DNA of 32,000 nt from Desulfobulbus propionicus DSM 2032 (GCF_000186885.1 NC_014972.1:2220001-2252000), one strand, 5' to 3'. Shown: positions 4,909 through 27,489, counted from the first letter of the stretch. Notes: a model not told the origin generated them from the sequence alone. Numbers and translations: made by a program.

Positions 4909-5211
4909 CTATTCCGGTTGCTTGAGTTGCGGTGATTGCCGTGTCGATGCGTTCCCGCTGGCCGCTTGGCCGGGAAGCGGGGCCACCTGCTCAACGGCAG
5001 GGGGTGCCTTCTGCTCCCTGGGCGGAAAAAGAATGGTTTGTCCTGCCCAGATTCCCAGCACAAACATCCAGAAAAACAAGAAGAAACAGACAACCACCAG
5101 GCCGAACATCCCGCGCCAGCCCAGTTCAATGCGAAACGGCTTGGCCTTGCGCGGTCGCGGCCTTTCCCCAGGGGGGGCTTCCGGCGGGGCTTTTCGGGTC
5201 AACAGTTCCAT
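4909..5211 (-). CDS. Hypothetical single-pass membrane protein with Pro/Gln-rich tail
   Basis: 100-aa ORF with one TM helix (MFGLVVVCFFLFFWMFVLGIWAG) and a basic, Pro-rich N-terminus. GGAGAGG lies upstream. It is immediately downstream of argS. Confidence 0.45.
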   Translation of the reverse strand: MELLTRKAPPEAPPGERPRPRKAKPFRIELGWRGMFGLVVVCFFLFFWMFVLGIWAGQTILFPPREQKAPPAVEQVAPLPGQAASGNASTRQSPQLKQPE

Positions 5212-5358
5212 GGCTGTGTGCGGTTCCTCTCCTTGCCCAGGAATGCCAATCCCTTGATGTCCCTTCGGGGTCCGGGGGGAGGCACGCGTTCTTTGTTAAG
5301 TATTGCCGGGAAAAAAGCAAGCCAGAAAACAGGAAAAGATGCGCGACCGATCCGCCGG

Positions 5359-7008
5359 TTACATTGTCTCCGGGGCGCGGAGGCCAATGAGCGTGAGCCC
5401 GTTGCGGAACACCCGTTTCAGGGCCCCGCACAGATACAGGCGAGCGCGGCTCAACTCGGGATCATCGCCCAGCACCTTGTGCTTGTTGTAGAAGCCGTGA
5501 AATTGTCCGGCCAGGTCCATCAGATAGAAAACCACCCGATGGGGCGCCAGATCGGCCGCGGCGCCAGCCACCAGCTGGGGATACTCGGCCAGGGTCTTGA
5601 GCAGGCCATACTCCTCGGGTTCAGCCAAACGGGCCAAGATCTGGTCCGGGGTTCCAACGTTCACGCCCTGCTCCCGGGCTTGCCGTTCGATGCTGCACAG
5701 CCGGGCATGGGCATACTGCACGTAGTACACCGGGTTTTCCTGGCTCTGCTTCTTGGCCAGATCAAGATCAAACTCGATCAGGTTGTCGGGCTTGCGCATG
5801 AGGAAGAAAAAACGCAGAGCATCCGGACCGACCTCGTCGACCAGTTCATCCACAGTGACAAAGGTGGCCTTGCGGGTCGACATCTTGACCTGCTTGCCGT
5901 CGCGCAGCAAGGTGACAAACTGGTAGAGGACCACGGTGATCCGGCTGTCGTCATGGCCCAACGCCCGCACTCCGGCGAGCACGTCGGGCACGGTGGCGAT
6001 GTGATCGGAGCCGAACACATTGATCATCCAGTCATAGCCGCGCTTGAACTTGTCGCAGTGGTAGGCGATGTCCGGCAACCGGTAGGTGGGCTCGCCGCTG
6101 CTTTTGATAATCACCCGGTCCTGTTCCTGGCCGAACTCGGTGGTCTTGAACCAGGTGGCTCCCTCTTTCTCGTACACCAGATTTTTTGCCCGCAGCTCCT
6201 CGACCACCTGGTTGACGCGGCCGTCCTCATACAGGGTGTGCTCGTTGAAATAGGTGTCGAACCCGATGCCGATTCGTTTGAGGGTGGCGTCGATGTCGGC
6301 GAAGATGGCCCGTTGGGCCCGCTCCTTGAAAACCGCGAGCTCGGCATCCTTGAACCCGTCTCCGGCCTCGTCGATCATCGCCCGGGCGATGTCGTAGATA
6401 TAGTCGCCCTGATAGCCGTCCTCGGGAAAAGTATTGGCCAAGCCGAGCAGTTCCAGGTAGCGCGCCCGGGTCGATTCCCCCAGCACCCGCATCTGGCGGC
6501 CGGCATCGTTGAAGTAGTATTCCCGCTGAACCGCGTAGCCGCTGGCGGTCAGCAGCCGGGCGATGGTATCGCCGAGCACCGCGTTGCGGCCATGGCCGAC
6601 GCTCAGGGGACCGGTGGGATTGGCGCTGACAAACTCGACCAGCACCCTGCGGTCGGCGCCGTTGGTGGAGCGGCCAAAATGGGCGTCCTGCTCGTAAATG
6701 GGGGCGAGCACCGTGACCCAGATCTTCTTGTCGAGAAAGAGATTGATGAAACCCGGACCAGCGACCTCCACCCGCTCGATCATCGACTGACCGCCGAGCA
6801 GCTCCGCAAACTGCGCGGCCAGGTCACGCGGCTTGCGTTTGTCGATGCCAGCGGCCACCAGGGCAAAATTGGTGGAAAAATCACCCTGCCCTTCGCGCTT
6901 GGGCACCTCGACGGTGTAACGGCCGCCAGCGGCCTCGCTCCAATACCCTTGTTTGACGCCCTCGGTGAAACAGCGGTCAACAATTTCTTTAACGTGTGAT
7001 TTGATCAT
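5359..7008 (-). CDS. argS: Arginine--tRNA ligase
   Basis: 549 aa. It has the class I signature region SANPTGPLSVGHGRN, a KMSKS-like segment VKMSTRKATF and a typical C-terminal DALR-type anticodon-binding end ...GLRAPETM. Confidence 0.95.
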   Translation of the reverse strand: MIKSHVKEIVDRCFTEGVKQGYWSEAAGGRYTVEVPKREGQGDFSTNFALVAAGIDKRKPRDLAAQFAELLGGQSMIERVEVAGPGFINLFLDKKIWVTVLAPIYEQDAHFGRSTNGADRRVLVEFVSANPTGPLSVGHGRNAVLGDTIARLLTASGYAVQREYYFNDAGRQMRVLGESTRARYLELLGLANTFPEDGYQGDYIYDIARAMIDEAGDGFKDAELAVFKERAQRAIFADIDATLKRIGIGFDTYFNEHTLYEDGRVNQVVEELRAKNLVYEKEGATWFKTTEFGQEQDRVIIKSSGEPTYRLPDIAYHCDKFKRGYDWMINVFGSDHIATVPDVLAGVRALGHDDSRITVVLYQFVTLLRDGKQVKMSTRKATFVTVDELVDEVGPDALRFFFLMRKPDNLIEFDLDLAKKQSQENPVYYVQYAHARLCSIERQAREQGVNVGTPDQILARLAEPEEYGLLKTLAEYPQLVAGAAADLAPHRVVFYLMDLAGQFHGFYNKHKVLGDDPELSRARLYLCGALKRVFRNGLTLIGLRAPETM

Positions 7009-12905: not shown

Positions 12906-13979
12906 TCAGCGGCCGCCGGTGATCAGGCCGAGCGGTCCAGGGCAGAACCTGGCCAGGAACCGATGGCAGCCGACCAGCAGGGCCATCACCAGTACCGGAA
13001 TGGTCAGATAGAGCGTCAGCATGGTGTAGGCGCCGTCGAGCGGGATAAAGCGAAAAGCCAGCAGACGAACGATGCCCAGCAGCGGTTCATGGGCCGCATA
13101 GACAAAAAAGCTGGCGCCGCCAAGGGTGATCAGGGCGTCGCGCAGCCGTGGCCACGCCAGAATCGGCTTGGTGACGCACAGGGCCGCCAGCACGCCGACA
13201 ATCAGACCGGTGCGGTGGAGGTAGACGTTGAACCAGGCATGATACCAGATGACGTCGGCGACCAGCATCGGCACATAGAGGCCATAGATGGGCTTGGCGA
13301 AGCGGTCAAAGGCGAACAGATTCTCGCCCTTGATGCCGCATAGGGCGCCGGCGGAAAAGAACAGCACGCCCACCGCCCCCGGCATGGCGACCGGCCAGGT
13401 ATCCGTCACCCAGCAAAGATAAACGACGATGAAAAAGGGGATGGGCACGAAGCGGACAATAACGGCCAGCAGCGGCGCCAGCAGCACCAGGAGCATCAGG
13501 TCGCGGATGAACCAGAAATGATAGGCGATCGGGTAGCCCTTGAGGCCAAGGAGAGCGTTGAGGTAGTCAAAGGCGCCGTATTGGGCGATTTTTTTGCCCA
13601 GTCCGGTAAAATAGGGCTGGATCGACGGAATGGCCTGGGCAAGGGCAAAAAACGCCAACGCCGCCAGGTTCCAGAAAAGAAAGGGGATGAGCAGGCTGCG
13701 CAGCCGGGTCATGATCTTGTGCACATACGTCCGTCGTGACCAGTGGAAGGTGGCAAAAAACAGATACCCTGCCATGAGAAAAAACAACGGCACCGCGATA
13801 CGGGCGATCCCCTCCGAGAGCAGGATGCGGATCCAATTGGTCAGGGCGTTGAGCTGGTCGGTGCCGAGACTGCCGCCCGAATAGTGGATCACCGTGTTGT
13901 AGGCATGGATGTAGATGACGCCGATGATCGGAGGAAAGCGAAGCAGCTTGAGGCGCAGCGAGGACTCGTTGTCTATCAT
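12906..13979 (-). CDS. Acyltransferase family 3 (AT3) integral membrane O-acyltransferase
   Basis: 357 aa and about 10 TM helices. The N-terminal region LRFPPIIGVIYIHAY is consistent with the AT3 conserved His-containing first helix, and the general AT3 topology fits. Confidence 0.75.
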   Translation of the reverse strand: MIDNESSLRLKLLRFPPIIGVIYIHAYNTVIHYSGGSLGTDQLNALTNWIRILLSEGIARIAVPLFFLMAGYLFFATFHWSRRTYVHKIMTRLRSLLIPFLFWNLAALAFFALAQAIPSIQPYFTGLGKKIAQYGAFDYLNALLGLKGYPIAYHFWFIRDLMLLVLLAPLLAVIVRFVPIPFFIVVYLCWVTDTWPVAMPGAVGVLFFSAGALCGIKGENLFAFDRFAKPIYGLYVPMLVADVIWYHAWFNVYLHRTGLIVGVLAALCVTKPILAWPRLRDALITLGGASFFVYAAHEPLLGIVRLLAFRFIPLDGAYTMLTLYLTIPVLVMALLVGCHRFLARFCPGPLGLITGGR

Positions 13980-14137: not shown

Positions 14138-14386
14138 TCAGCGACGATGGTGGCCGCCGTGCGGATAGCCTCGATGGCTGCCACGTCCCTCGTGATAGGT
14201 AAAATCGAAAAAAATGTTCGGATAGAGAAAAATCCAGCCCGGATCGGCGTAGAGGGCCGGAGGCCGATACGGGGTATAATACGGTCCATAGGGATAGGCA
14301 TCGTAATAGTACGGGTCGTGATAATAGCCCACACAACCGCCGCAGGCCAGAAGCAGGATTGCGGCCGCAAGCAAACGACATTTCAT
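14138..14386 (-). CDS. Small Tyr/Pro/His-rich lipoprotein
   Basis: 82 aa. It has the signal peptide plus lipobox MKCRLLAAAILLLAC and GGAAGG upstream of the ATG. The mature part has 14 Tyr in 68 residues (GYYHDPYYYDAYPYGPYYTPY) and a His-rich C-terminus. Confidence 0.6.
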   Translation of the reverse strand: MKCRLLAAAILLLACGGCVGYYHDPYYYDAYPYGPYYTPYRPPALYADPGWIFLYPNIFFDFTYHEGRGSHRGYPHGGHHRR

Positions 14387-14484: not shown

Positions 14485-15540
14485 TTACCACGCGCGATGA
14501 AAACGGACCCGGACCGGCAGTCCCTCGATGGCCTGCTGGACAGGCAGCGGTTTGACCGGATCGAGGGTCACCAGTACCATCATTTCGCGGCTGCCGATCG
14601 CCGAACTAAGCTCCGCCGGAAGACGGCGCGTCTGGCCGGGTGCGTCCCGCACCGTTGCCTCCAGGGACAGATCGCCGGCAACGGTGACCGTGGCCCGCGT
14701 TCCCGCGCTCACCCACTTGACCTGTTCCGGCCGCATATAGGCCTCCACATGGGGCCGTTCCTGCCGGCCGATCACTAGCACCCCCGCGCCGGCGTCCAGC
14801 ACGCTGCCCCGTTCAGCCAGAATCTCCAGCACCGTGCCGTCGCCGTCGGCAACAAGCGTCAACGGCTGCCGTTGCGCCTGCAACAGAGGGAGTTGCCGTT
14901 GCAACTGCTCACGGGAGAGAGGGGCTCCCGTGGCCGGCGATGACGGCACCGCTGCCTGCCCCTCGGCCTCGGTTCGTTCCAGTTGCGCCTGGACTAGGAC
15001 ATGCCGCGCCGCGTCAAGCTGGGAGCGGATTGCATTGACCTCGGCCTCGGTGGCCGCTCCCTGGGCGCGCAAACGGGCGACAACGGCCAGGCGCTGCTCC
15101 TGATGGGCCACGGCCCTGGCCGCATGCAGCTCCTGCTGGCGATAAAGGGCCAGCCTCTTTGGTCCGGCAAGCGATCCGGACACTGGTTCCAGCATCGTCT
15201 CCACGGTTTCGATTTGCTGTTCAAGCTTGGGCGCGCTCAGCCGCGCCACCTCTTGGCCCCGCCGTACCCGTTCACCCGGCTGGACAAGGACGCGGTCAAC
15301 CACGCTCTCGGTCACCGCGACCAGGGTTTCCTTGTCCAGGACAACGACGCCGGGCGCGGTCACCACCACCAACGGCAGAACCAGCTGGTAGAGCAGATAG
15401 AAGAACGGACTGGCCACCAGGGCGAGGATGATCCACCAGCGCCAGGAAGCAACGGCCCGCCTTCCCGGCGTATAGGGAACCTTCATCCCCTGGCTGACAT
15501 CCGCGGGCTGTTGCTCCCGTTGACTGAAACGAATGTTCAT
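14485..15540 (-). CDS. HlyD-type membrane fusion (periplasmic adaptor) protein
   Basis: ORF 14485..15567. Start set at MNIRFSQ (15540), which forms an ATGA overlap with the upstream stop (15537-15540). It has a single N-terminal TM helix (WWIILALVASPFFYLLYQLVLPLVVV), a lipoyl-like segment VLVQPGERVRRGQEVARL, a long Ala/Gln/Arg coiled-coil hairpin and a C-terminal beta-barrel-like region. Confidence 0.8.
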   Translation of the reverse strand: MNIRFSQREQQPADVSQGMKVPYTPGRRAVASWRWWIILALVASPFFYLLYQLVLPLVVVTAPGVVVLDKETLVAVTESVVDRVLVQPGERVRRGQEVARLSAPKLEQQIETVETMLEPVSGSLAGPKRLALYRQQELHAARAVAHQEQRLAVVARLRAQGAATEAEVNAIRSQLDAARHVLVQAQLERTEAEGQAAVPSSPATGAPLSREQLQRQLPLLQAQRQPLTLVADGDGTVLEILAERGSVLDAGAGVLVIGRQERPHVEAYMRPEQVKWVSAGTRATVTVAGDLSLEATVRDAPGQTRRLPAELSSAIGSREMMVLVTLDPVKPLPVQQAIEGLPVRVRFHRAW

Positions 15541-17741
15541 GGTTGCATCTCCTGCCACCGGCTCCAATCCTGGACCACGAGACCATGAAAATTGGGAGCG
15601 GCGAGCAACTGGGCCAACCGGGTCATGCGGGCGGTGAACTGTGCCCGGCCCGCCTGATAATGACTTTCCTCGGTCGACAACTCCGGTTCCACGCTCTGAG
15701 CCACGGAAAAACGCTGGCGCGGGAACGCTTGGAGGATGGGGGTGGCCACCTCTGCCACCCGTTGCGGATTGGCCGCATAGATCATCAACACCACCTCCGT
15801 CACCTGCAGACGATCAAGCATGGCCCCTAACTCCTTCTTTTTCCCGTTCGGCTTCAGGGTCCGCGGATGCAGGCTCACCCCGACGGGCCAGGGGCTGGCC
15901 CGCCTGGCCGCCTCGACCGTGGCGGCCCACTCTGTGAGCATCTTGGTATCACGTCGATGCCGCTCATCCAGCTGATCGATTTCAAGATCCAGATGCAGGC
16001 CGGCAAAGGGTAGGTCCGCCAGCGAAGCGACGATCTCCACCAGGCGCGGCCGATGCTGCGCCAGAATCCATGACGGTTCGCCCAGCAGCAGTTCCACCGT
16101 GATCCCCTGGCCATGCAACCGCTCAATCCAGGAGGAAAAAATCGCCCGCGCCTCCGGGGTGGCCAAGCTGTCGATCTGCCTCTGGTCAAGTGACAGCAAC
16201 AGGCGCTCCACGCCCGTTTTCCGCAGGGCAGGGACAAAGGCGGAATCAGCCTGCTCCTGCTGCCGAAAGCGGTCCGATCGCCACACGTAGAGGGTGTTAA
16301 CACCCCGGCCGGCCAGTGGTGATTCCGCCTCCACGACCTGTTTTTCCGTGCCAGCCGCCGAAACCTCCCCCAGCAACCGGGGATCGATCTTCTCGACCGG
16401 GGAACCCTCCTCCCGCGGCCGCCGATCCTCTTGGCGTTGGGCGGCGAGGGGTGTATGGGCGAGCAGGGTAATCAGCTGACCGTATTGCCGGGCCTGGGCG
16501 TCCACCGCGTCGAGGGACGCCTGATAGTAAGCGTACCGACTTTGTTGCAGCTGCTCCAGAGTATCCCCCTCCATAGCGATCCGCAGTTTGTTCTCCTTGA
16601 CCCGCTGGCCGGCCGCCTGAAGCCGTTGGCCGGCAAAGCCCAGATCGGCTCGCGAAGCGCGGTACAGGGCCTGGGCCTCCTCGACCCGGAGGCGGACATT
16701 GTCTCGCTCCAGCGCCAGTTCCCGGCGGCATTTGGCGGCCAAGGTTTGGGCAGAGCGCTGGGCGGCATTGTCATTCCTGGCGATGGTGCCCAGCGGCAAT
16801 TCAACCGCGAAATTGACCCCAAGACTGTACTCCGGTTCCTTGTCGCCGTCATCGACGCCAGCGGCGGTGTACAGATCGAAATGGGCGCTGGTGCCGGCAT
16901 GGCTCGTCAGGGGAATCTGCTGTTCCAGCCCCCGCAGCCGCTCCCGCAGGAGCGCCACAGCGGGAAAGTCGTCCATGGCCCGTCGCGGCAGGTCAGCAAG
17001 ATCGTCCTTGGGCCGGGCAAAACGGGGTGTCTGGGCAATGAACGGCAGGGAAATTCCGGTCAACCTCTGGATGGTGTGCAGGGCGGTCTGCTGGGTGACC
17101 CGCAGGGTTTCCTGGTTGCGACGGACCAGATCAAAGGAGGAAAGAAACTCGAGCCGGTCGGCTTCCAGCAGATAACCTGCCTGCTGCCGGCGGGTCAGGA
17201 GCTGGCGCTGTTTGGCTTCACCGGCAAGAAAGGTCTGGCCCAGCCGCTGTTTTTCCTGGGCTGCCCAGTAGGTGACATAGGCTTGGCGGAGCAGGGCCAA
17301 GGACTGGAGGCGGGCGAGGCGTACCTGCTGCTCCTTTTCCCGCACCGATGTCTGGGCCTCGACCACCTCCCGGCGCTCGGCATCGGCACGCCCCAACAGG
17401 GGGCGGCGCAGGCCGGCGCGCACATCGTAGGTGGTGTACCGGCGATCGTCGCCACTGAGCGCGGCATCCTCGGTCAAGCCGGTCCCCGCGCCAGCAAAGA
17501 GCTTCCATCCCTGTTCACTTTGCCGCTGATCCAACTGGGCTTGGCCAGCCTCCAGATCGGCGGCGGCGATCTGGACCTCATCCGCCCGGATCAACCCGCC
17601 TTCGAGCTCGTCCAGCCCATGGACCGACTCGGCGGTGCCGGCCAGCAGGCGCACAGGACACAACAGGAATACCAGCAGCACGAGCAGCGTGACGGCCGGA
17701 CGGCAGGCAAGCGGTGCACGAAACATCATGGGAACACGCAT
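15537..17741 (-). CDS. TolC-like outer-membrane channel protein fused to a C-terminal alpha/beta (TIM-barrel-like) domain
   Basis: 734 aa with a signal peptide (LLVLLVFLLCPVRLLAG). Residues ~40-430 are Ala/Gln/Arg/Leu-rich coiled-coil repeats interrupted by strand-like segments (YDVRAGLRRPLL, YSLGVNFAVELPLG), as in OEP/TolC proteins. A charged linker spans 431-478 and an extra domain spans 479-734. A GAGG SD lies 5 nt upstream, and the gene starts 9 nt after the GT2 stop. Confidence 0.65.
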   Translation of the reverse strand: MRVPMMFRAPLACRPAVTLLVLLVFLLCPVRLLAGTAESVHGLDELEGGLIRADEVQIAAADLEAGQAQLDQRQSEQGWKLFAGAGTGLTEDAALSGDDRRYTTYDVRAGLRRPLLGRADAERREVVEAQTSVREKEQQVRLARLQSLALLRQAYVTYWAAQEKQRLGQTFLAGEAKQRQLLTRRQQAGYLLEADRLEFLSSFDLVRRNQETLRVTQQTALHTIQRLTGISLPFIAQTPRFARPKDDLADLPRRAMDDFPAVALLRERLRGLEQQIPLTSHAGTSAHFDLYTAAGVDDGDKEPEYSLGVNFAVELPLGTIARNDNAAQRSAQTLAAKCRRELALERDNVRLRVEEAQALYRASRADLGFAGQRLQAAGQRVKENKLRIAMEGDTLEQLQQSRYAYYQASLDAVDAQARQYGQLITLLAHTPLAAQRQEDRRPREEGSPVEKIDPRLLGEVSAAGTEKQVVEAESPLAGRGVNTLYVWRSDRFRQQEQADSAFVPALRKTGVERLLLSLDQRQIDSLATPEARAIFSSWIERLHGQGITVELLLGEPSWILAQHRPRLVEIVASLADLPFAGLHLDLEIDQLDERHRRDTKMLTEWAATVEAARRASPWPVGVSLHPRTLKPNGKKKELGAMLDRLQVTEVVLMIYAANPQRVAEVATPILQAFPRQRFSVAQSVEPELSTEESHYQAGRAQFTARMTRLAQLLAAPNFHGLVVQDWSRWQEMQP
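15540..16307 (-). other. C-terminal ~255-aa domain of the TolC-like protein: predicted (beta/alpha)8-like fold, putative glycoside-hydrolase-like
   Basis: Eight short hydrophobic strand-like segments alternate with amphipathic helices: TLYVW, RLLLSL, ITVELLLGE, AGLHLDLE, VGVSLH, EVVLMIY, FSVAQSVE, GLVVQDW. Acidic residues sit at strand ends (E555, D585/E587, E685, D725). The fold call is inferred from this pattern only. Confidence 0.4.
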
Positions 17742-17750
17742 CGCCGCCTC

Positions 17751-19085
17751 TTAAAACTTGGATTTGCGCAGCACCCACCAGGGGGCCATGCTGGAATCGA
17801 GATGGGAGCGGCAGGTTATCTCCCGCATTGTTGCCAAGGCGCTGCCAATCCGCTGGAAAAAGGTGAAATGGGGAAGCAGCGGCAGCAGCCAGGCCAAACG
17901 CAAATCCTCGGCTGGCCGGTCCGAGACCAGTGCGACATGAGCCGCAAAGAGCATGATACTGATCAGCAGGTAAAAGAGATAGACGAGAAACCAGATGGCC
18001 ATGACCAGTGCCGGCGGGTACAGGAAAAACAAGGCCAGGCTGTAGAAAAGAATGATGAACGGCATCACCACCTGAAAAAACAACCCGGTCCACACCTGCA
18101 GGATCAGGTTGCGCCATCCCAGCAGGGCGGGCGAAAAACTGAGCGGGTGCTTGCGGATGTACAGGTAGTAGAGGTCGCCGTCCCATCGCTGCCGCTGCTT
18201 GAAAAAACCACGCCAGGTGGCGGGAACATCAGTGTGGCCGATGGCATGGGGTTCAAAGACGATGCGCAGGTGGGGATGACGGCCAAAATAATTTTTGATC
18301 CGCAGCGTCAGGTCGAGATCTTCCGCCGTGCCGGTGTCCCAGCCGCCGATTTTATCAATGAAACTGCGACGGAACACTCCAAAGGCGCCTGAGATGTTGT
18401 TGACCGTGTTGAATTCGCTCAAACCGACCCTGCTCAGCTGAATGGACAGCAGGTACTCGATCGCCTGCAGCCGGGTGATCAGGTTGACCCGCCAGTTGCG
18501 CACCCGCAGACATCCCGCCACGCCGACCACATGAGGGTCCTCGAAATGGCGGGTGGCGTGACGGACCATGTCGTTATCAAAGGAAGTATCGCCGTCCAGG
18601 GCCATGACAATCGAACCTTTGGCCAAGTGCAGGCCGAGGTTGAGCGAGGATACCCGGCCGCCTCGCTGCCATTTCGGCACCACCATCAGGGAACGGTTAC
18701 CCAACCGGCTGACGACGGGTTGCATGGTCAGGGCTGCCTGGTGGGTGTCCCTGTTGTCCACGGCACCGTCGATCAGGGCGATGATTTCTATCGGGCCGGA
18801 ATAGCGCTGTTCCGCCAAGGAGAGAATGGTTCGCCGCACGTCGTTGCCCTCGCCGTAGCAGGTGATCAGGCAGCTCACCCGGGGAAAAAAGGTGCGTTCC
18901 TCGCGGACCGCCGCATCCTGCCGCAGGGCATACCGGACCACACCCAGCAGAATGAACAGGTAGACCGGCAATTCCAGAAAAAGCACAAAAGGAATGAATT
19001 TAATCAGGAGTTCCATCCATCCCGCGGTGAACGGCATGACCGCCAGCAGGCAGAAGGCGCTCCAGGTTTCAAGAATAATATCCAT
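17751..19085 (-). CDS. Processive-type family 2 glycosyltransferase (membrane-embedded polysaccharide synthase, PgaC/IcaA/NodC/BcsA-like core)
   Basis: ORF 17751..19136. Start set at MDIILETW (19085), with GGAGG 9 nt upstream and only 1 nt after the upstream stop. Motifs are IALIDG (D1), ALDGDT (DxD), GGWDTGTAEDLDL (catalytic ED) and QRQRW (18183-18197). There are 2 N-terminal and about 4 C-terminal TM helices and no PilZ domain. Confidence 0.85.
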   Translation of the reverse strand: MDIILETWSAFCLLAVMPFTAGWMELLIKFIPFVLFLELPVYLFILLGVVRYALRQDAAVREERTFFPRVSCLITCYGEGNDVRRTILSLAEQRYSGPIEIIALIDGAVDNRDTHQAALTMQPVVSRLGNRSLMVVPKWQRGGRVSSLNLGLHLAKGSIVMALDGDTSFDNDMVRHATRHFEDPHVVGVAGCLRVRNWRVNLITRLQAIEYLLSIQLSRVGLSEFNTVNNISGAFGVFRRSFIDKIGGWDTGTAEDLDLTLRIKNYFGRHPHLRIVFEPHAIGHTDVPATWRGFFKQRQRWDGDLYYLYIRKHPLSFSPALLGWRNLILQVWTGLFFQVVMPFIILFYSLALFFLYPPALVMAIWFLVYLFYLLISIMLFAAHVALVSDRPAEDLRLAWLLPLLPHFTFFQRIGSALATMREITCRSHLDSSMAPWWVLRKSKF

Positions 19086-19086
19086 G

Positions 19087-20484
19087 TTACGCGAATCCTC
19101 CTTCCAGGCGGGCAAGGAGCAGCTTTCCGGTTTCACCGGGGATGATATCCTCCGGGGCGGTGAAGACCACGGTCTCGAAGTCTAGCTCGCCCCCCTCGGC
19201 TCGGTGGATCATGCTCCGCAGGGCAAGAATGCGCGCCAACACCACCTCGTGGCTCGGCCGTCCGGTCTTGGGCAGCAGCAGCCACAGCATCTGCTGCCCG
19301 GTGCGGGTGGTCAGGTCCGTGGTTCGCACCAGTTCGCGCAGCCGCTGGGCCAAGGCATCCACCAGCTCCGCCGCCGTCTGTTTGCCGTGCTGGACGTCGA
19401 GTTCCAACAGATTGGTCAGCTTGATGCCGATGATGGTGAAGCGCTCCTCCGCATGCCGGCGGGCCAGGTCAATCAGCCAGCCAACCAGCTGCATGAAATA
19501 GCTGGGCGGAACGCTGTTGACCGTATCGAGCAGGGCAAACAGATCCTCCATGGTGCCGCTCTTGGCGGCTTGCCCCCCCAGATCGGTCAGCTCGTAGGTG
19601 AAGATCTGGCCGGGGATCAGCTTCTCCGGTGGCGACGGCGTGCCGCAGTGCATGCAATGGGCCTGCACCTCGGGATCGATGAACACGTGGCCACAGCCCT
19701 GGCATTCGTAATTCTCCAACGGACGATCGTAGTCCGCGCCGATATGGCGCAACCGGGCGGCGCACTTCGGACACTGGAGCGCCCCCTTTTCGACAAACCG
19801 CTCCTCCGGGGCCACCATGCCGCAGGTGAAGCAATGGAGGAAGGGTTTTTGCAAGATGTTGATGCCGCCGCAGCTCGGACAGCAATCGATGAAATTGAGA
19901 TGCACCCCATGGCAGGCCGGACAGTGCCGAAGGCGGTCGACCAGGGTGGCACGCCGGATCAATTTCCGCTCACCCATCGATGCAAGCCGCGAGGCGACCA
20001 GCTGCGCCGACCCCAGCATGGCCTCCAGCGCCGGATACGCATAAAAGGCTTGATTGGACCAGAGCCGTCGCGGGGCAAGCGCCTCAACGGCACGGGACAG
20101 CATGTAGCCGGCGATGCGGAGCACGTCGCTGGCGTCCGGCGCAAAGAGGGAGGCGTCCAGCTGCGCCAGCCGCGCGACAAGGGTGCGGCCACGATCGCGG
20201 GCCTCTTCCGGTGAGGCGACGATGCCGTCGCTGAGGTCATCGTCCGGATCGCCCAGCGGGCTGGTGGTCAAAATCGGCTGCAGGCCAGTGCGTGGATCCC
20301 GGCGCAGTGCCCGCACGATACGGACGGACTCGTGGTGTTCACCGGTGGCGACGACAAACACCGTGGATCGGGTCGTTGTCGGCGCGAGGCTGTCGAAATC
20401 GGTCGCGCATCGGACATGCGCACCTTCCGGCGGTTCCTGTCCAAGGCAGGAGGCAGGGGAAGAGACGATATAGATCAGTTCCAT
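19087..20484 (-). CDS. Soluble regulator: receiver-like N-domain + triple zinc-ribbon module + degenerate GGDEF domain with intact I-site (putative c-di-GMP receptor)
   Basis: 465 aa with no TM helix. Six CxxC pairs fall between residues 188 and 280. The C-terminal ~150 aa align by eye to GGDEF domains, with GQQML in place of GGDEF and RTTD at the canonical RxxD I-site position. It is the first gene of the operon. Confidence 0.7.
   Translation of the reverse strand: MELIYIVSSPASCLGQEPPEGAHVRCATDFDSLAPTTTRSTVFVVATGEHHESVRIVRALRRDPRTGLQPILTTSPLGDPDDDLSDGIVASPEEARDRGRTLVARLAQLDASLFAPDASDVLRIAGYMLSRAVEALAPRRLWSNQAFYAYPALEAMLGSAQLVASRLASMGERKLIRRATLVDRLRHCPACHGVHLNFIDCCPSCGGINILQKPFLHCFTCGMVAPEERFVEKGALQCPKCAARLRHIGADYDRPLENYECQGCGHVFIDPEVQAHCMHCGTPSPPEKLIPGQIFTYELTDLGGQAAKSGTMEDLFALLDTVNSVPPSYFMQLVGWLIDLARRHAEERFTIIGIKLTNLLELDVQHGKQTAAELVDALAQRLRELVRTTDLTTRTGQQMLWLLLPKTGRPSHEVVLARILALRSMIHRAEGGELDFETVVFTAPEDIIPGETGKLLLARLEGGFA
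19090..19551 (-). other. Degenerate GGDEF-like domain (inactive cyclase fold with I-site)
   Basis: DTVNSVPPSYF replaces D-x-LTGLPNRR-x-F. IGIKLT replaces the metal-binding (L/I)D(L/I)D. RTTD-LTTRT-GQQML (nt 19285-19326) matches the RxxD-x5-GGDEF spacing, with the I-site kept and the active site lost. The WLLLPKT continuation matches the canonical xxLLPxT. Confidence 0.65.
19645..19923 (-). other. Three tandem CxxC...CxxC zinc-ribbon units
   Basis: The Cys pairs are 188/191+202/205 (CPACH...CPSCG), 218/221+238/241 (CFTCG...CPKCA) and 261/264+277/280 (CQGCG...CMHCG). Confidence 0.7.
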
Positions 20485-22578: not shown

Positions 22579-24789
22579 ATGCGAATCCTGTTGCTTTGCT
22601 CCTGCATCCTGACCCTGGCTATCAACGCCCTGGCCGAAGAACCCAAGACCGCTCCTCCGGCCGGCGCCCCGCCCCTGCTGACCGCACCGGCCCCGCAGCC
22701 GGCGCCGGAAAGCAAGCCGCCGGCTTGGCTGCCGCAGCCAGGGCAAGCCCCGCCATCTCTCTCGCCCGCCGCAAGGCCGGCTGCCGACAAACCACAGACC
22801 GAGAAACCGGCCGTCTCGCCGGCGGCAACGGCTAAACCCGCGGTCGACAAACCGGCGGCACCGCAACAAACTGAAATCGCGCCGGCGGCCAAACAGAACA
22901 AAACAGCCAAAAAGAACGCCAAGAACAACAGTCAGCGGGCCAAAACCACAGCCAAGAAATTCGGCCGGGGAAACGATGTCCCCCCGCTGATTGCCGGCGC
23001 GGTCGACGACTCGGAATCGGCCCGGCAACAGGCCTCCCTGTGGCACCAGGTGCTGGATCTCCCCCTGACGCTTCGTCAAGTCACGGCCACGCCGCCGCTG
23101 CTGGCCGGCATTCGTCCGCAGCACACCAAAGCCGCGGTCGAGGAGTCCGAGCCACTGTTCAAATTTGAATCAGCGTTGGCCAAGCGGCTGGCGCAGCAGG
23201 AGGAGAAGGAGCAGAAAATCAGCAGCACCCTGGACATGCTCACCTCGCTGGTCGATCTGCAGCACAACATCAAGCAGCAGATCTCGATTCTTTCCAAAAA
23301 GCTGAAGACCAGCGGTTCGGAAACCGAGAAACAGGCCTTGCAGGAAGAGTTGGCCAAACTGGACAAACAGCTGTCCGAAACTGGAGCCGATTTCGAACGC
23401 ATCGCCACCGGCATCGAGCCCCAGGTCTTTTCCGAGCAAAAAGACGTGAGTTTCAGTTGGAAGGAGGAGCTGGCCACCCTGCTCGAACCGAGCATCAAGG
23501 AACTGAAACAGCTCACCGCTCGGGCACGGCAGAAATCGGAACTCAAGGAAACCATCGATGAGTACCACGAACAGGTCGTCACGGCTCAACGCGCGGTGGA
23601 ACACCTCAACCAGCTGATCAACGAGACCAAGGATCCGAACATCAAGGCCTATCTGGGCGAACTGATGCCCGCCTGGCAGCACATGGAGAAACGGATCGGC
23701 AGTAAATTGGAACTGGCGCAGCGGGAACTGGCCAAGCTGGAAGACAAGGATGTCTCGCTGCTGGAAAGCTCGGGCAATTCAGTGCGCGAATTTTTCCGTG
23801 ACCGCGGCTGGTACCTGCTCATCGCTCTGCTCGCCTTCGTGGTCATTCTTCTGGCCTTCCGCCTGATCGCCCGCCTGCTTTTTTTCATCCTGCCGGGCGC
23901 GCGCAAGGAACAGCGGCCCCTCCACGTCCGCATCCTGGACATCTTTTTCCAGATCTTTTCGGTGATCTCGGCCATTTGCGGCCTGATCTTCGTTCTCTAC
24001 ACCGCCGAGGATTGGCTTTTGCTCAGCGCCGCCATCATCCTCCTGGTCGGCATCGCCTGGACAGTGCGCCAGACCCTGCCCAAGATGTGGCAGCAGGTTC
24101 GGCTGCTGCTCAACATGGGCTCGATCCGCGAGGGCGAACGGGTGGTCTACCAGGGCGTGCCCTGGCGGGTGGAATCGCTCAACGTGTTCTGCAAGCTCTA
24201 CAACCCAGACCTGGGCATGCACCTGCGTATTCCGGTGGAAAACATGATCGGCCTGATCTCAAGGCCCTATCACAACGACGAGCCCTGGTTCCCCTGCAAA
24301 CGGGGCGACTGGATCGCCATTGACGGCAAGCCCTTTGCCAAGGTGGTCAGCCTCTCGCACGAACAGGTCGAGGTGGTCGAACTGGGAGGACGGCGCACGG
24401 TCTACCGGACCGCTGATTTTCTGAGCAAGTCGCCGGCCAACCTGTCGAGCAACTTCAACCTGCGGGTGGTCTTTGGCCTCTCTTATGCCCTGCAGGCCGA
24501 AATCACCACCACGGTCCTGGACACGTTGAAGACCTTCATCCACAAAAAAATGGAAGAGCATGGGTATGCCGAGGACTGCCTCAGCCTGTCGGTGGATTTT
24601 CTCCAGGCCGGCCCCTCTTCCCTTGACGTGGCGGTGCTGGCCGATTTCAAGGGCGACCAGGCCCCGGCCTATCGCCGGATCGAACGGGCCCTGGCCAAAT
24701 GGTGTGTCGAGTGCTGTAATGCCAACAATTGGGAAATCCCCTTCCCGCAGATGACCGTGCACCTGCCCGGTTCGGAAGGCACGGCCTGA
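22579..24789 (+). CDS. MscS-family mechanosensitive channel with long periplasmic N-terminal extension (MscK/MscM-like architecture)
   Basis: 736 aa. It has a signal peptide (MRILLLCSCILTLAINALA), a Pro/Ala/Lys-rich low-complexity region at aa ~21-130 and a coiled-coil region to aa ~400. TM helices start at aa 411. An MscS-like beta-domain follows (IREGERVVYQGVPWRVESLNVF). Confidence 0.75.
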   Translation: MRILLLCSCILTLAINALAEEPKTAPPAGAPPLLTAPAPQPAPESKPPAWLPQPGQAPPSLSPAARPAADKPQTEKPAVSPAATAKPAVDKPAAPQQTEIAPAAKQNKTAKKNAKNNSQRAKTTAKKFGRGNDVPPLIAGAVDDSESARQQASLWHQVLDLPLTLRQVTATPPLLAGIRPQHTKAAVEESEPLFKFESALAKRLAQQEEKEQKISSTLDMLTSLVDLQHNIKQQISILSKKLKTSGSETEKQALQEELAKLDKQLSETGADFERIATGIEPQVFSEQKDVSFSWKEELATLLEPSIKELKQLTARARQKSELKETIDEYHEQVVTAQRAVEHLNQLINETKDPNIKAYLGELMPAWQHMEKRIGSKLELAQRELAKLEDKDVSLLESSGNSVREFFRDRGWYLLIALLAFVVILLAFRLIARLLFFILPGARKEQRPLHVRILDIFFQIFSVISAICGLIFVLYTAEDWLLLSAAIILLVGIAWTVRQTLPKMWQQVRLLLNMGSIREGERVVYQGVPWRVESLNVFCKLYNPDLGMHLRIPVENMIGLISRPYHNDEPWFPCKRGDWIAIDGKPFAKVVSLSHEQVEVVELGGRRTVYRTADFLSKSPANLSSNFNLRVVFGLSYALQAEITTTVLDTLKTFIHKKMEEHGYAEDCLSLSVDFLQAGPSSLDVAVLADFKGDQAPAYRRIERALAKWCVECCNANNWEIPFPQMTVHLPGSEGTA

Positions 24790-26233: not shown

Positions 26234-27489
26234 ACGAATTGCATTCACTGGAACACTACCGCGAGGCAATCGCCCAATGCGTGCGCTGCGGCGCCTGCCA
26301 AGCCCACTGCCCGGTATATCGGGAGACCGGCCGCGAGGGCTCGGTGGCCCGGGGCAAGATCGTGCTGGCGGCGGCGGTGCTCAACGGCGAGGTCGGGCTG
26401 GATGAGCGGCTGCGCGAGGAGATCGGCCTCTGTCTGCTGTGCGGTTCCTGCGTGGTCAAATGCCCCAACCGGGTGCCCACCGATGCCATTGTCGGCGCGC
26501 TTCGCCGACAGATCACCGCCGAGCACGGCCTGTCGCCGATCGGCAAGGGGGTGGCGGCCCTGACCGGGTCCAAGTCGTTGCTCAAAACCCTGGTGAAAGG
26601 CGCGGACCTGCTCTCGCCCCTGCTGTTCAAAAAAATCCCCGAAAGCAGTGGCCTGCGGCTGCGATTCTCGCCGGAACTGCTGCGGGAACGCAGCCTGCCG
26701 CCGATTGCCGACCGGGATCTCTTTGCCCGGGTGCCGGAGTTTCTTGAGGGCGAGGCAGACAAACCGGTGCTGGGAGTCTTTGCCGGCTGCGCCCTCACCT
26801 ACCTCTACCCCCAGATAGGGGAACTGCTGGTGCGCCTGCCGCACCGCCTCGGCTATTCGGTGTTTCTCCCCAGAGCCCAGGGCTGCTGCGGCATGCCGGC
26901 CCTGTCCTCGGGCAACGGACCGCTGATCGACAAGCTCTCAACCGCCAATATCAGGGCCTTTGCCGGCCGCGAGGTGACGGCCGTCCTCACCGCCTGCGCT
27001 TCCTGCCACGGCATGCTCGCCGGCCATTCCGGCAAACAGGCGGGCACGCCTTTTACCGCGCCGCTGATGGACATCCATGCGTTTTTCCACCAGCAGGGGC
27101 TGGTCGATCGCCTGGCATCGCTTCCCCGATGGCAACAGCGCATCCGGGTCACCTACCACGACCCCTGCCATCTCCGCGGCGCGGGGATCGTCAAGGAACC
27201 GCGCGCCCTGTTGCGCGCCCTGCCCCAGGTCGATTTTGTCGACATGGAAGACGCCGGACTGTGCTGCGGCCTGGGCGGCACCTTCACCGCCGCGCATCCG
27301 GAACTGAGCCGCACCATCGGCGACCGCAAAGTCCAGGGTCTGCGGGCAAGCGGGGCGGCCGTGGTAGCCAGCGGCTGTCCCGGCTGCATTCTCCAACTGC
27401 AGGATATCATCGACCGATCCGGCCTGCCGATACGCGCGGTGCATACCCTGGAACTGATCCACCAGGCCCTCAACGAGCCAGCGCAATGA
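26230..27489 (+). CDS. glcF: GlcF-like Fe-S subunit with two CCG domains
   Basis: 419 aa. It has two ferredoxin-type motifs (CVRCGACQAHCP, CLLCGSCVVKCP) and two CCG motifs (GCCGMP, LCCGLGG). It is translationally coupled on both sides. Confidence 0.85.
   Translation: MNELHSLEHYREAIAQCVRCGACQAHCPVYRETGREGSVARGKIVLAAAVLNGEVGLDERLREEIGLCLLCGSCVVKCPNRVPTDAIVGALRRQITAEHGLSPIGKGVAALTGSKSLLKTLVKGADLLSPLLFKKIPESSGLRLRFSPELLRERSLPPIADRDLFARVPEFLEGEADKPVLGVFAGCALTYLYPQIGELLVRLPHRLGYSVFLPRAQGCCGMPALSSGNGPLIDKLSTANIRAFAGREVTAVLTACASCHGMLAGHSGKQAGTPFTAPLMDIHAFFHQQGLVDRLASLPRWQQRIRVTYHDPCHLRGAGIVKEPRALLRALPQVDFVDMEDAGLCCGLGGTFTAAHPELSRTIGDRKVQGLRASGAAVVASGCPGCILQLQDIIDRSGLPIRAVHTLELIHQALNEPAQ

What the first reader, a model, noticed from the sequence alone, without database searches (positions are those of the whole stretch)
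15537..17741. TolC-like outer-membrane duct fused to a C-terminal TIM-barrel-like, putative glycoside-hydrolase-like domain
Seen directly: after a signal peptide and ~390 aa of TolC/OEP-like coiled-coil repeats there is a charged, Pro-containing linker (aa 431-478). A ~255-aa extra domain follows (aa 479-734, nt 15540-16307). This domain shows eight hydrophobic strand-like segments alternating with amphipathic helices: TLYVW 483-487, RLLLSL 513-518, ITVELLLGE 547-555, AGLHLDLE 580-587, VGVSLH 620-625, EVVLMIY 649-655, FSVAQSVE 678-685 and GLVVQDW 720-726. Carboxylates sit at strand C-termini, notably HLDLE (nt 15981-15995). That is the pattern of (beta/alpha)8 glycosidases and GH-like families. 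Established knowledge: both termini of TolC-family proteins are periplasmic. Nearly every synthase-dependent EPS system includes a periplasmic glycanase/lyase (BcsZ, the PgaB C-domain, the PelA hydrolase domain, AlgL, PslG). Inference: here the polymer-processing enzyme appears to be physically fused to the exit duct. I do not know of this arrangement for TolC-family proteins.
Basis: partly seen in the sequence, partly recalled or inferred. Interest (0 to 1): 0.7.

Follow-up and report, generated by a model that had tools for sequence, protein, structure and literature searches.

The report
TolC-like duct fused to enzyme-like barrel
A real, widely conserved gene encodes an outer-membrane exit duct of the TolC type with an enzyme-like TIM-barrel domain tethered to its periplasmic end. 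It sits in a four-gene cassette that looks like an undescribed c-di-GMP-controlled machine for making and exporting a sugar polymer.

Summary
ORF 15537-17741 (-) is the 734-aa Desulfobulbus propionicus protein ADW18104, annotated only as "TolC family protein".

AlphaFold2 models (pLDDT about 91) show:
- a signal peptide;
- a complete two-repeat TolC-type outer membrane factor, aa 35-427, with Foldseek E down to 8e-15 and target TM 0.6-0.8 against TolC, OprM and CusC;
- a poorly conserved Pro/Ala-rich linker;

The fusion is not an artefact. It occurs in 134 of the 163 proteins in hand (the 150 best profile hits plus the first search's homologues) and in 64 of 80 genomic loci across many phyla.

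It always lies in a cassette of a degenerate-GGDEF regulator (RxxD kept), a processive GT2 synthase, the OMF::barrel gene and a HlyD adaptor. Natural split versions exist in which the barrel has its own signal peptide.

The barrel matches no Pfam or CAZy family. Its only clear relative is an uncharacterised Cellulomonas fimi structure, 10yv. Invariant W, D, E, S and Q residues sit at the catalytic face, so hydrolase activity is plausible but unproven.

The closest known systems are the Xcs and BgsBA-TolC tripartite polysaccharide exporters. This is a new variant of a known kind.

The parts
19087..20484 (-). Cytoplasmic regulator of 465 aa with a TackOD1 zinc-ribbon-rich domain followed by a degenerate GGDEF domain. 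It is the likely c-di-GMP receptor.
   Evidence: Pfam TackOD1 E 2.2e-60 and GGDEF E 6.3e-7. The RxxD I-site (RTTD, aa 387-390, nt 19315-19326) is kept in nearly all of about 70 homologues, while the GGDEF motif is lost (TGQQM and similar). The gene is present next to the GT2 gene in 67 of 80 loci.
17751..19136 (-). Membrane-embedded processive family-2 glycosyltransferase (the synthase). The true start is probably the ATG at 19085.
   Evidence: Pfam Glyco_trans_2_3 E 1e-20 and Chitin_synth_2 E 1e-12. The best NCBIfam match is PgaC_IcaA at E 9e-41, which is below its cutoff, followed by NodC. The DGD, AED and QRQRW motifs can be read in the translation. Homologues align from about residue 18 onward.
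17640..17741 (-). Signal peptide of the fusion protein, aa 1-34.
   Evidence: Read directly from the sequence: a basic N-terminus, a hydrophobic core and LLA|GT. Helix 11-32 in the model has low pLDDT. No dedicated signal-peptide predictor was run.
16461..17639 (-). TolC-type outer membrane factor (exit duct), aa 35-427.
   Evidence: Pfam OEP, the AF2 secondary structure, and Foldseek hits to TolC, OprM, CusC and others at E 8e-15 to 5e-11 with target TM 0.6-0.8.
16302..16460 (-). Flexible Pro/Ala/charged linker, aa 428-480.
   Evidence: pLDDT is below 50 for aa 463-475. Linker length is 12-205 aa (median 49) across 60 homologues, and it is the least conserved segment.
15540..16301 (-). (beta/alpha)8 TIM-barrel domain, aa 481-734, a putative periplasmic polysaccharide-processing enzyme. 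Invariant residues are W487, W558, D585, E587, S683, E685 and Q724.
   Evidence: AF2 pLDDT 91.9. Invariant columns come from 41 and 60 diverse homologues. All invariant residues lie at, or at most 5 residues after, the C-terminal ends of strands 1, 3, 4, 7 and 8. hhalign to the 10yv family gives Prob 97.8%.
15981..15995 (-). HLDLE motif at the end of strand 4 (H583, D585, E587), carrying candidate catalytic residues.
   Evidence: D585 and E587 are invariant in A3 and A4. The motif aligns with LDVEP of the C. fimi family.
15687..15689 (-). E685, an invariant carboxylate just after strand 7.
14485..15540 (-). HlyD-type membrane fusion (periplasmic adaptor) protein. Its ATG overlaps the stop codon of the fusion gene (ATGA).
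   Evidence: Pfam HlyD_3 and HlyD_D23. The ATGA overlap is seen at 15537-15540. The gene is adjacent to the OMF::barrel gene in nearly every locus.
14138..14386 (-). Small Tyr/Pro-rich ORF of 82 aa with a lipoprotein-like N-terminus. Whether it belongs to the system is uncertain.
   Evidence: It is conserved only in the closest relative, L001, and has no Pfam hit.
12906..13979 (-). Acyltransferase-3 family membrane protein, a possible O-acylation accessory.
   Evidence: Pfam Acyl_transf_3 E 1.4e-23. Among the 80 loci it is present only in L001, so it is not a core component.

Best explanation
The gene encodes the outer-membrane component of a tripartite, synthase-dependent exopolysaccharide secretion machine. 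A cytoplasmic receptor with a degenerate GGDEF domain senses c-di-GMP through its retained RxxD site and switches on a membrane GT2 synthase. The synthase polymerises the sugar chain and pushes it across the inner membrane. A HlyD-type adaptor bridges the periplasm to a trimeric TolC-type duct through which the chain leaves the cell.

Each duct subunit carries a TIM-barrel enzyme on a flexible C-terminal tether, on the outside of the periplasmic part of the duct. This barrel most likely cuts or trims the system's own polymer using the invariant D585/E587 (strand 4) and E685 (strand 7) carboxylates. It would then do the job that separate periplasmic glycanases (BcsZ, XcsC, the PelA hydrolase domain, the PgaB C-terminal domain, AlgL) do in other systems: chain release, length control, or clearing polymer that strays into the periplasm.

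Shown here: the architecture, the folds, the conservation and the gene neighbourhood. Inferred: c-di-GMP binding, the identity of the polymer, and the hydrolytic activity and its substrate.
For: - Architecture and folds.
- The fusion is conserved in 134 of the 163 proteins in hand (from a profile search with 1052 clusters at E<=1e-3) and in 64 of 80 genomic loci. The loci span Desulfobacterota, Gamma- and Betaproteobacteria, Synergistota, Planctomycetota and Binatia.
- All four genes are found in 67 of 80 loci, and the other 13 loci are on short or truncated contigs. The stop of the fusion gene and the start of the HlyD gene overlap as ATGA.
- No ABC, RND or MFS transporter is in the cassette. 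The only inner-membrane partner is the GT2, which has a QRQRW motif.
- Split versions place the barrel as a separate gene with its own signal peptide between GT2 or OMF and HlyD: L006, four Synechococcus loci, and L083/L084. This is Rosetta-stone evidence that the barrel is a periplasmic core part of the system.
- The barrel is the best conserved part of the protein.
- Its eight invariant residues, two Trp among them, all sit at the C-terminal face of the barrel.
- The RxxD site is conserved while GGDEF is lost.
- Precedents: Xcs (GT2, HlyD and an endoglucanase, with TolC in trans) and BgsBA-TolC (PMC12430437, PMC8892547, PMC13438883). PelA hydrolase is activated by binding the outer-membrane porin protein PelB (PMC8892547).
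Against: - No hydrolase family could be assigned. Pfam and NCBIfam are silent on the domain.
- Foldseek hits are generic TIM barrels with query TM at most 0.61, and they include non-glycosidases.
- The one significant relative, 10yv, is uncharacterised.
- A sealed adaptor-duct conduit would hide the polymer from an enzyme mounted on the outside of the duct, so how the enzyme reaches its substrate is unexplained.
- Relatives carry peptidoglycan-binding SPOR or OmpA modules at the same position, which fits a cell-wall role as well.
- The polymer is unknown: the best GT2 match, PgaC/IcaA, is far below its cutoff.
Confidence: 0.55

Rival explanations
1. The barrel is part of the polysaccharide system but is not a hydrolase. 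It could be a modifying enzyme (deacetylase, lyase, transglycosylase, epimerase) or a non-catalytic polymer-binding or guiding module.
For: No glycoside hydrolase family matches the domain. The top Foldseek hits include metal-dependent lyases and synthases. H583 and H625 are at least 90% conserved next to D585, so a metal site is conceivable. One distant member of the 10yv family sits in a UniRef cluster named ChbG/HpnK deacetylase. From general knowledge, the PgaB C-terminal domain was long regarded as a binding module.
Against: The paired invariant carboxylates after strands 4 and 7, together with conserved Trp, Tyr and Gln at the barrel mouth, are the classic layout of retaining glycosidases. 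The two His residues are not conserved in the C. fimi branch, whereas D and E are. No YdjC or CE4 signal was seen in Pfam.
Confidence: 0.2
2. The barrel works on peptidoglycan rather than on the exported polymer. It would locally open or grip the cell wall so that the envelope-spanning machine or the bulky polymer can pass.
For: In L083/L084 the orthologous duct ends in a SPOR peptidoglycan-binding domain, and in P0092 an OmpA-like domain is inserted in the barrel. Linkers can be as short as 12 aa, which keeps the barrel at mid-periplasm height. There is a weak GH18-like DGLxLDLE resemblance and one MupG_N hit at E 0.005. A review raises recruitment of peptidoglycan-remodelling enzymes as an open possibility for such systems (PMC8892547).
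Against: There are no matches to known muramidase, lytic transglycosylase or amidase families. From general knowledge, ordinary TolC-adaptor machines cross the wall without a dedicated hydrolase. In L083 the barrel is still present in addition to SPOR, so the two are not interchangeable. A polymer-specific glycanase is the near-universal accessory of synthase-dependent systems (PMC8892547).
Confidence: 0.15
3. The duct and adaptor are an ordinary efflux or type I secretion pair, as current annotation says, and the neighbouring GT2 is coincidental.
For: RefSeq names the genes 'TolC family protein' and 'HlyD family efflux transporter periplasmic adaptor subunit'.
Against: There is no energised transporter gene in the cassette. 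GT2 and the regulator co-occur in 67 of 80 loci across phyla and on a mobilizable plasmid.
Confidence: 0.03
4. The fusion is an assembly or frameshift artefact that joins two genes.
For: None beyond the rare split loci L006, L027, L029 and L076.
Against: The same single ORF is seen in 11 near-identical cluster members, eight of them full-length at 734 aa, from independent sources, in 14 full-length homologues, in 134 of the 163 proteins in hand and in 64 loci.
Confidence: 0.01

Closest known systems
Cyanobacterial Xcs extracellular cellulose system (XcsA GT2-PilZ synthase, XcsB HlyD-like adaptor, XcsC endoglucanase, TolC-like duct; Maeda et al. 2018 as described in PMC12430437 and PMC8892547)
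   Same: It is a synthase-dependent polysaccharide machine in which a GT2 synthase is coupled through a HlyD-type adaptor to a TolC-type duct. It has a dedicated glycanase and c-di-GMP control.
   Different: In Xcs the glycanase is a separate protein of a known cellulase family, the duct is encoded elsewhere, and c-di-GMP is sensed by a PilZ domain on the synthase. Here the duct is in the operon and fused to an unclassified TIM barrel, and the sensor is a separate TackOD1 plus degenerate-GGDEF protein. The polymer here is unknown.
BgsBA-TolC mixed-linkage beta-glucan system of Sinorhizobium meliloti (PMC13438883)
   Same: It has a GT2 synthase and a HlyD-type adaptor, requires TolC, and is activated by c-di-GMP.
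   Different: It uses the housekeeping TolC in trans. No glycanase is part of the module. c-di-GMP binds the synthase C-terminus.
PelB-PelA and PgaA-PgaB pairs (Pel and PNAG systems)
   Same: The outer-membrane export protein and the periplasmic polymer-processing enzyme work as a physical pair. PelA hydrolase is activated by binding PelB (PMC8892547). PelD is a degenerate-GGDEF c-di-GMP receptor that uses its RxxD site (general knowledge).
   Different: Those exporters are TPR plus beta-barrel porins rather than TolC-type ducts. Their association is non-covalent, and their enzymes belong to defined families (GH166/CE4 and CE4/GH153).
Classical outer membrane factors (TolC, OprM, CusC, VceC)
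   Same: The two-repeat fold and the pairing with an adaptor protein are the same.
   Different: To my knowledge, and in the papers searched, none carries an enzyme-like globular domain at its C-terminus. Sequence similarity is low: 12-19% identity, and Pfam OEP matches only at E 1e-6.
PDB 10yv, 'Putative GH97 from Cellulomonas fimi' (hypothetical protein P0193)
   Same: It is homologous over the whole barrel: hhalign Prob 97.8%, E 1.2e-12, 247 columns. It shares the LGG(D/E)xxW, LDxEP and (Q/E)xW motifs.
   Different: It is a stand-alone actinobacterial protein with no Pfam domain and no described function. Its family is named 'hypothetical' throughout. The residues on strands 5-7 differ.

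Membership tests
Outer membrane factor / OEP (TolC family, PF02321) | Profile match above the curated threshold | tested here: met
   PF02321 scores 29.1 bits against a cutoff of 22, over aa 55-229. The NodT subfamily model is far below its cutoff (21 against 210 bits), so this is a divergent member.
Outer membrane factor / OEP (TolC family, PF02321) | Two structural repeats, each with a beta-hairpin and long antiparallel helices | tested here: met
   AF2 model at pLDDT 91. Foldseek hits to TolC, OprM, CusC and others at E 8e-15 to 5e-11, target TM 0.60-0.80, about 410 columns.
Outer membrane factor / OEP (TolC family, PF02321) | Trimer forming a 12-stranded barrel and an alpha-helical tunnel | not testable with these tools
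   Only a monomer was modelled.
Outer membrane factor / OEP (TolC family, PF02321) | Cognate periplasmic adaptor (membrane fusion protein) | tested here: met
   A HlyD-type gene lies directly downstream with an ATGA overlap. It is adjacent to the duct gene in nearly every locus.
Glycoside hydrolase with (beta/alpha)8 fold and carboxylates on strands 4 and 7 (clan GH-A-like layout) | (beta/alpha)8 barrel | tested here: met
   AF2 pLDDT 91.9, pTM 0.90, eight strands.
Glycoside hydrolase with (beta/alpha)8 fold and carboxylates on strands 4 and 7 (clan GH-A-like layout) | Invariant carboxylates at the C-terminal ends of strands 4 and 7 | tested here: met
   D585 and E587 (strand 4 end, +2) and E685 (strand 7 end, +3) are invariant in 41 and 60 diverse sequences. 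The Asn that precedes the acid/base Glu in the GH-A NEP motif is absent here (LDLEP).
Glycoside hydrolase with (beta/alpha)8 fold and carboxylates on strands 4 and 7 (clan GH-A-like layout) | Significant sequence or fold match to a characterised GH family | tested here: not met
Glycoside hydrolase with (beta/alpha)8 fold and carboxylates on strands 4 and 7 (clan GH-A-like layout) | Hydrolytic activity on a glycan | not testable with these tools
   This needs an enzyme assay.
GH18 chitinase-like (clan GH-K) | DxxDxDxE motif and a profile match | tested here: not met
   The motif here is DGLHLDLE, with His in place of the middle Asp. The A3 profile against GH18 chains gives E 0.1-2 and covers strands 3-4 only. 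PF00704 is hit by 1 of 41 members at E 0.16.
10yv / C. fimi hypothetical-protein family | Profile-profile homology over the whole domain | tested here: met
   hmmsearch E 2.2e-6. hhalign Prob 97.8%, 247 columns.
Tripartite synthase-dependent polysaccharide secretion (Xcs / BgsBA-TolC type) | Processive membrane GT2 with D, DxD, (T/A)ED and QxxRW motifs | tested here: met
   Pfam and NCBIfam matches. The DGD, AED and QRQRW motifs are read in the translation.
Tripartite synthase-dependent polysaccharide secretion (Xcs / BgsBA-TolC type) | HlyD-type adaptor and TolC-type duct functionally linked to the synthase | tested here: met
   Gene linkage is seen in 67 of 80 loci and on a plasmid. A physical complex was not tested.
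Tripartite synthase-dependent polysaccharide secretion (Xcs / BgsBA-TolC type) | c-di-GMP activation | tested here: inconclusive
   RxxD is retained and GGDEF is lost in the neighbouring regulator. Binding itself cannot be tested here.
Tripartite synthase-dependent polysaccharide secretion (Xcs / BgsBA-TolC type) | A secreted polysaccharide product | not testable with these tools
   No experimental data were found.

The most novel reading that the evidence does not exclude
This is the founding example of an undescribed, phylum-spanning, c-di-GMP-gated exopolysaccharide machine, present in Pseudomonas/Stutzerimonas, Nitrosomonas, Desulfobulbus, Synergistota and picocyanobacteria and carried on an Aeromonas plasmid. 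Its TolC-type duct is covalently armed with the first characterisable member of a new glycoside hydrolase family. It would be the first enzyme-bearing outer membrane factor and the first functional context for the TackOD1 domain.
Probability: 0.4. Interest if true: 0.8.

Novelty: new variant of a known kind. Interest (0 to 1): 0.66.

Why it matters
Tripartite export of polysaccharides (synthase, adaptor, TolC) is a recent and still thinly supported idea, known from Xcs and BgsBA-TolC. In both of those cases the duct is encoded elsewhere.

Here the duct, the adaptor, the synthase and a c-di-GMP receptor are hard-wired in one mobile cassette, found in at least a thousand sequence clusters. That gives strong genomic support for this export route and offers a clean system for testing it.

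The covalent link between the exit duct and an enzyme-like barrel bears on a long-standing puzzle: why do polysaccharide secretion systems carry an enzyme that degrades their own product, and where does it act? The barrel family has no Pfam model and no known function, so it may define a new carbohydrate-active enzyme family with potential for dispersing biofilms.

There is also a practical point. Current pipelines label these genes as efflux components and a diguanylate cyclase, which is probably wrong.

Tried and rejected
- **Artefactual fusion.** Rejected: the single ORF recurs in independent assemblies and across phyla.
- **GH18 membership.** The DGLHLDLE, LLLGEP and LMIY motifs look GH18-like, and GH18 chains are the next PDB sequence hits after 10yv. 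But E-values are 0.1-2 and confined to strands 3-4, PF00704 is essentially silent, and hhalign against a remembered hevamine sequence gave 0.5%. My last protein search, meant to build a GH18 profile, returned only fragments.
- **PelA/GH166 relationship.** A faint hit at E 1.8 with the narrow profile disappeared with the broader one.
- **The 'GH97' label of 10yv.** The C. fimi protein has no Pfam match at all, including the GH97 model, and its relatives are all named 'hypothetical'. The label carries no functional weight.
- **Model coordinates** are not exposed, so I could not measure the distance between the carboxylates.
- **Solved relatives of the GT2** gave no clue to the polymer.
- **Literature.** Eight searches found no description of the fusion or the cassette. 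Subscription-only papers are not covered.

Full report
**What is there.** The minus-strand ORF at 15537-17741 is intact. It is preceded by a GAGG 5 nt upstream of its ATG, and it encodes 734 residues. It is identical to Desulfobulbus propionicus DSM 2032 ADW18104.1 / WP_015724644.1. The sources name it only 'outer membrane protein-like protein' or 'TolC family protein'.

**The N-terminal part is a TolC-type duct.** Pfam OEP matches aa 55-229 just above threshold, so the protein is a divergent member. A full-length AlphaFold2 model built on 60 homologues has mean pLDDT 91.2. It shows the canonical duplicated outer-membrane-factor unit: a helix, a beta-hairpin (80-115 and 285-314) and pairs of very long helices (116-172 with 193-228, and 326-387 with 394-427). 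Foldseek against the PDB returns TolC, ST50, OprM, OprN, CusC, VceC, CmeC and MtrE at E 8e-15 to 5e-11, with target TM-scores of 0.60-0.80 over about 410 columns. Residues 428-480 are modelled with low confidence. Across 60 homologues this linker is 12-205 residues long (median 49), rich in Ala, Pro and Ser, and the least conserved part of the protein.

**The C-terminal part is a TIM barrel.** Modelled alone with 12 homologues, aa 476-734 gives pLDDT 91.9 and pTM 0.90.
- In alignments of 41 and 60 diverse relatives the invariant residues are W487, W558, D585, E587, S683, E685 and Q724. Y485, G554, P556, R564, H583, H625, R627, Y655 and Q682 are nearly invariant.
- Every invariant residue lies at, or within five residues after, the C-terminal end of strand 1, 3, 4, 7 or 8. 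That is the face where TIM-barrel enzymes have their active sites.
- Carboxylates after strands 4 and 7, with aromatic residues around them, form the layout of many retaining glycosidases. This is a resemblance and not a family assignment.

**No known family claims the barrel.** Pfam and NCBIfam find nothing in it, even at E up to 10 across 41 members. Foldseek against the PDB gives only generic barrels with query TM at most 0.61. Glycosidases (PslG, a GH53 galactanase, a GH20 hexosaminidase, GH18-like proteins) are mixed with citramalate synthase, isocitrate lyase/PEP mutase enzymes and methylenetetrahydrofolate reductase.

The one significant relative is PDB 10yv, deposited as 'Putative GH97 from Cellulomonas fimi'. 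The profile E-value is 2.2e-6, and hhalign between the two families gives 97.8% probability over 247 columns. That protein and all its relatives are 'hypothetical', have no Pfam domain and have no described function. The label therefore adds no functional evidence.

A GH18-like look (DGLHLDLE against DGxDxDxE, LLLGEP against SxGG, LMIY against MxYD) did not hold up statistically.

**The fusion is real and widespread.**
- A profile of the barrel finds 1052 clusters at 50% identity with E at most 1e-3, and 270 with E at most 1e-30.
- Of the 163 proteins in hand (the 150 best of those hits plus the first search's homologues), 134 also contain the duct part. Most of the rest are fragments, and a few have their own signal peptide.
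- In 80 genomic loci from one genome per species, 64 have the single fused ORF, 7 are cut by contig ends, 4 are split and 5 encode the barrel alone.
- The hosts include Desulfobulbales, Syntrophobacteraceae, Nitrosomonas, Pseudomonas, Stutzerimonas, Marinobacter, Pantoea, Cupriavidus, Synergistota, Planctomycetota, Binatia and Synechococcus.

**The neighbourhood says what the system is.** In 67 of 80 loci, with the remaining 13 on short or truncated contigs, the fusion gene sits in the same four-gene cassette. The order is regulator, GT2, OMF::barrel, HlyD. In Synergistota it is permuted to OMF::barrel, HlyD, regulator, GT2.
- In the window the HlyD start codon overlaps the fusion gene's stop codon (ATGA).
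- The GT2 carries the DGD, AED and QRQRW motifs of processive synthases. Its best curated match is PgaC/IcaA, followed by NodC and chitin synthase, all below family cutoffs. The polymer therefore cannot be named.
- The regulator has a TackOD1 domain, an archaeal-type zinc-ribbon module of unknown function (PMC5847659), followed by a GGDEF domain. The catalytic motif of that domain is gone, but its RxxD inhibitory site is kept in nearly every homologue. From general knowledge, this is how PelD senses c-di-GMP.
- No ABC, RND or MFS transporter is present. The duct and adaptor can therefore only be serving the synthase.
- The cassette also sits on a 29-kb mobilizable Aeromonas caviae plasmid, where it is annotated as efflux components and a diguanylate cyclase.
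- The flanking genes in the window are housekeeping genes (SecA, PPK2, alanine racemase, cytochrome c assembly and others).

**Natural split versions are informative.**
- In a Desulfobacterales genome (L006) a stop codon lies in the linker, and the barrel ORF begins with its own signal-peptide-like segment.
- In four Synechococcus loci the barrel is a separate gene with an N-terminal hydrophobic segment, between GT2 and HlyD, and no duct gene is in the cassette.
- In marine metagenome contigs (L083/L084) the orthologous duct ends in a SPOR peptidoglycan-binding domain, and the barrel follows as a separate secreted protein.
- One representative (P0092) has an OmpA-like domain inserted in the barrel.

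These variants show that the barrel is a periplasmic core component whether or not it is fused. They also show that the C-terminus of this duct clade tolerates cell-wall-binding modules.

**Most likely mechanism.**
1. c-di-GMP binds the receptor.
2. The GT2 makes and translocates the polymer.
3. The HlyD adaptor and the trimeric duct carry it out.
4. Three tethered barrels per duct act on the polymer in the periplasm.

The barrels would then play the part that BcsZ, XcsC, PelA, the PgaB C-terminal domain or AlgL play elsewhere. Reviews describe that role as nearly universal yet poorly understood (PMC8892547). Covalent tethering would be the extreme form of the PelB-PelA arrangement, in which the exporter binds and activates the hydrolase (PMC8892547).

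I put 0.55 on this whole statement. About 0.97 applies to the architecture, about 0.85 to the polysaccharide-export role, and about 0.5 to hydrolysis of the system's own polymer. One open problem is how an enzyme on the outside of a sealed conduit reaches the chain.

**Rivals.**
- The barrel could be a non-hydrolytic modifying or binding module (0.2).
- It could act on peptidoglycan (0.15). The SPOR and OmpA variants and the short linkers keep this alive. It is weakened by the lack of any match to cell-wall hydrolase families and by the barrel persisting alongside SPOR.
- The annotated efflux reading (0.03) and an assembly artefact (0.01) are effectively excluded.

**Comparison with known systems.** The system works like the cyanobacterial Xcs cellulose machine and the rhizobial BgsBA-TolC glucan machine (PMC12430437, PMC13438883). 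It differs in four ways: the duct is in the operon, the duct is fused to the enzyme-like domain, the barrel family is unclassified, and the c-di-GMP sensor is a separate protein. The protein is a member of the outer-membrane-factor family. It is not demonstrably a member of any glycoside hydrolase family. Eight full-text searches found no description of the fusion or the cassette. Subscription literature is not covered, so prior description cannot be fully excluded.

**Verdict.** This is a new variant of a known kind. Interest is moderately high, at 0.66.

Noticed in passing
L081/L082 (NZ_AP024951.1, Aeromonas caviae plasmid pKAM345_3, 29 kb): The cassette sits on a mobilizable MOBP plasmid. 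The 'diguanylate cyclase' gene (record 26660-28042), the TolC family gene (352-2436) and the HlyD gene (2446-3462) are annotated. A GT2 gene is presumed to lie in the unannotated stretch across the record origin, but this was not checked. The module therefore appears to be horizontally mobile, and it is annotated as efflux.
   Followed up: partly
L083 695-2749 and 2756-3679; L084: In marine metagenome contigs the orthologous duct (35% identity) ends in a SPOR peptidoglycan-binding domain. The TIM barrel is a separate 307-aa secreted protein located before the HlyD gene.
   Followed up: partly
P0092 (957 aa), aa 771-873: An OmpA-like peptidoglycan-binding domain is inserted inside the TIM barrel of a fused homologue, between strands 7 and 8.
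   Followed up: partly
L006 7650-8000: An in-frame stop lies in the linker, and the downstream barrel ORF carries its own signal-peptide-like start (MAGPLAVLLWVASIVTVHA|GS). This is a natural gene fission of the fusion.
   Followed up: yes
L057, L059, L060, L067 (Synechococcus); L060 7797-8741: Picocyanobacterial cassettes have the regulator, GT2, a stand-alone barrel and HlyD, but no duct gene. They presumably use a TolC encoded elsewhere.
   Followed up: partly
window 19087-20484 (-): TackOD1, described as an archaeal response-regulator output domain of unknown function (PMC5847659), is here fused to a degenerate GGDEF domain. It is linked to a polysaccharide synthase across bacteria, which gives a first functional context for this domain. 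RefSeq calls the protein a diguanylate cyclase, which the lost GGDEF motif makes unlikely.
   Followed up: partly
window 14138-14386 (-): An 82-aa ORF has a lipoprotein-like N-terminus (LLACGGC) and a Tyr/Pro-rich body, and lies between the HlyD and acyltransferase genes. It is conserved only in the closest relative, L001, and has no Pfam hit.
   Followed up: no
window 12906-13979 (-): An Acyl_transf_3 gene follows the cassette. Among the 80 loci it is shared only with L001, so it is a lineage-specific accessory, possibly for polymer O-acylation.
   Followed up: partly
window 17751-19136 (-): The listed GTG start of the GT2 overlaps the regulator gene by 50 nt. Homologues align only from about residue 18, so the ATG at 19085, just after the regulator's stop, is the more likely start.
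   Followed up: partly
window 22579-24789 (+) and 4936-6999 (+): Two long ORFs (736 and 687 aa) have no Pfam match. The second overlaps a 549-aa ORF on the other strand, and I did not resolve which of the two is real.
   Followed up: no
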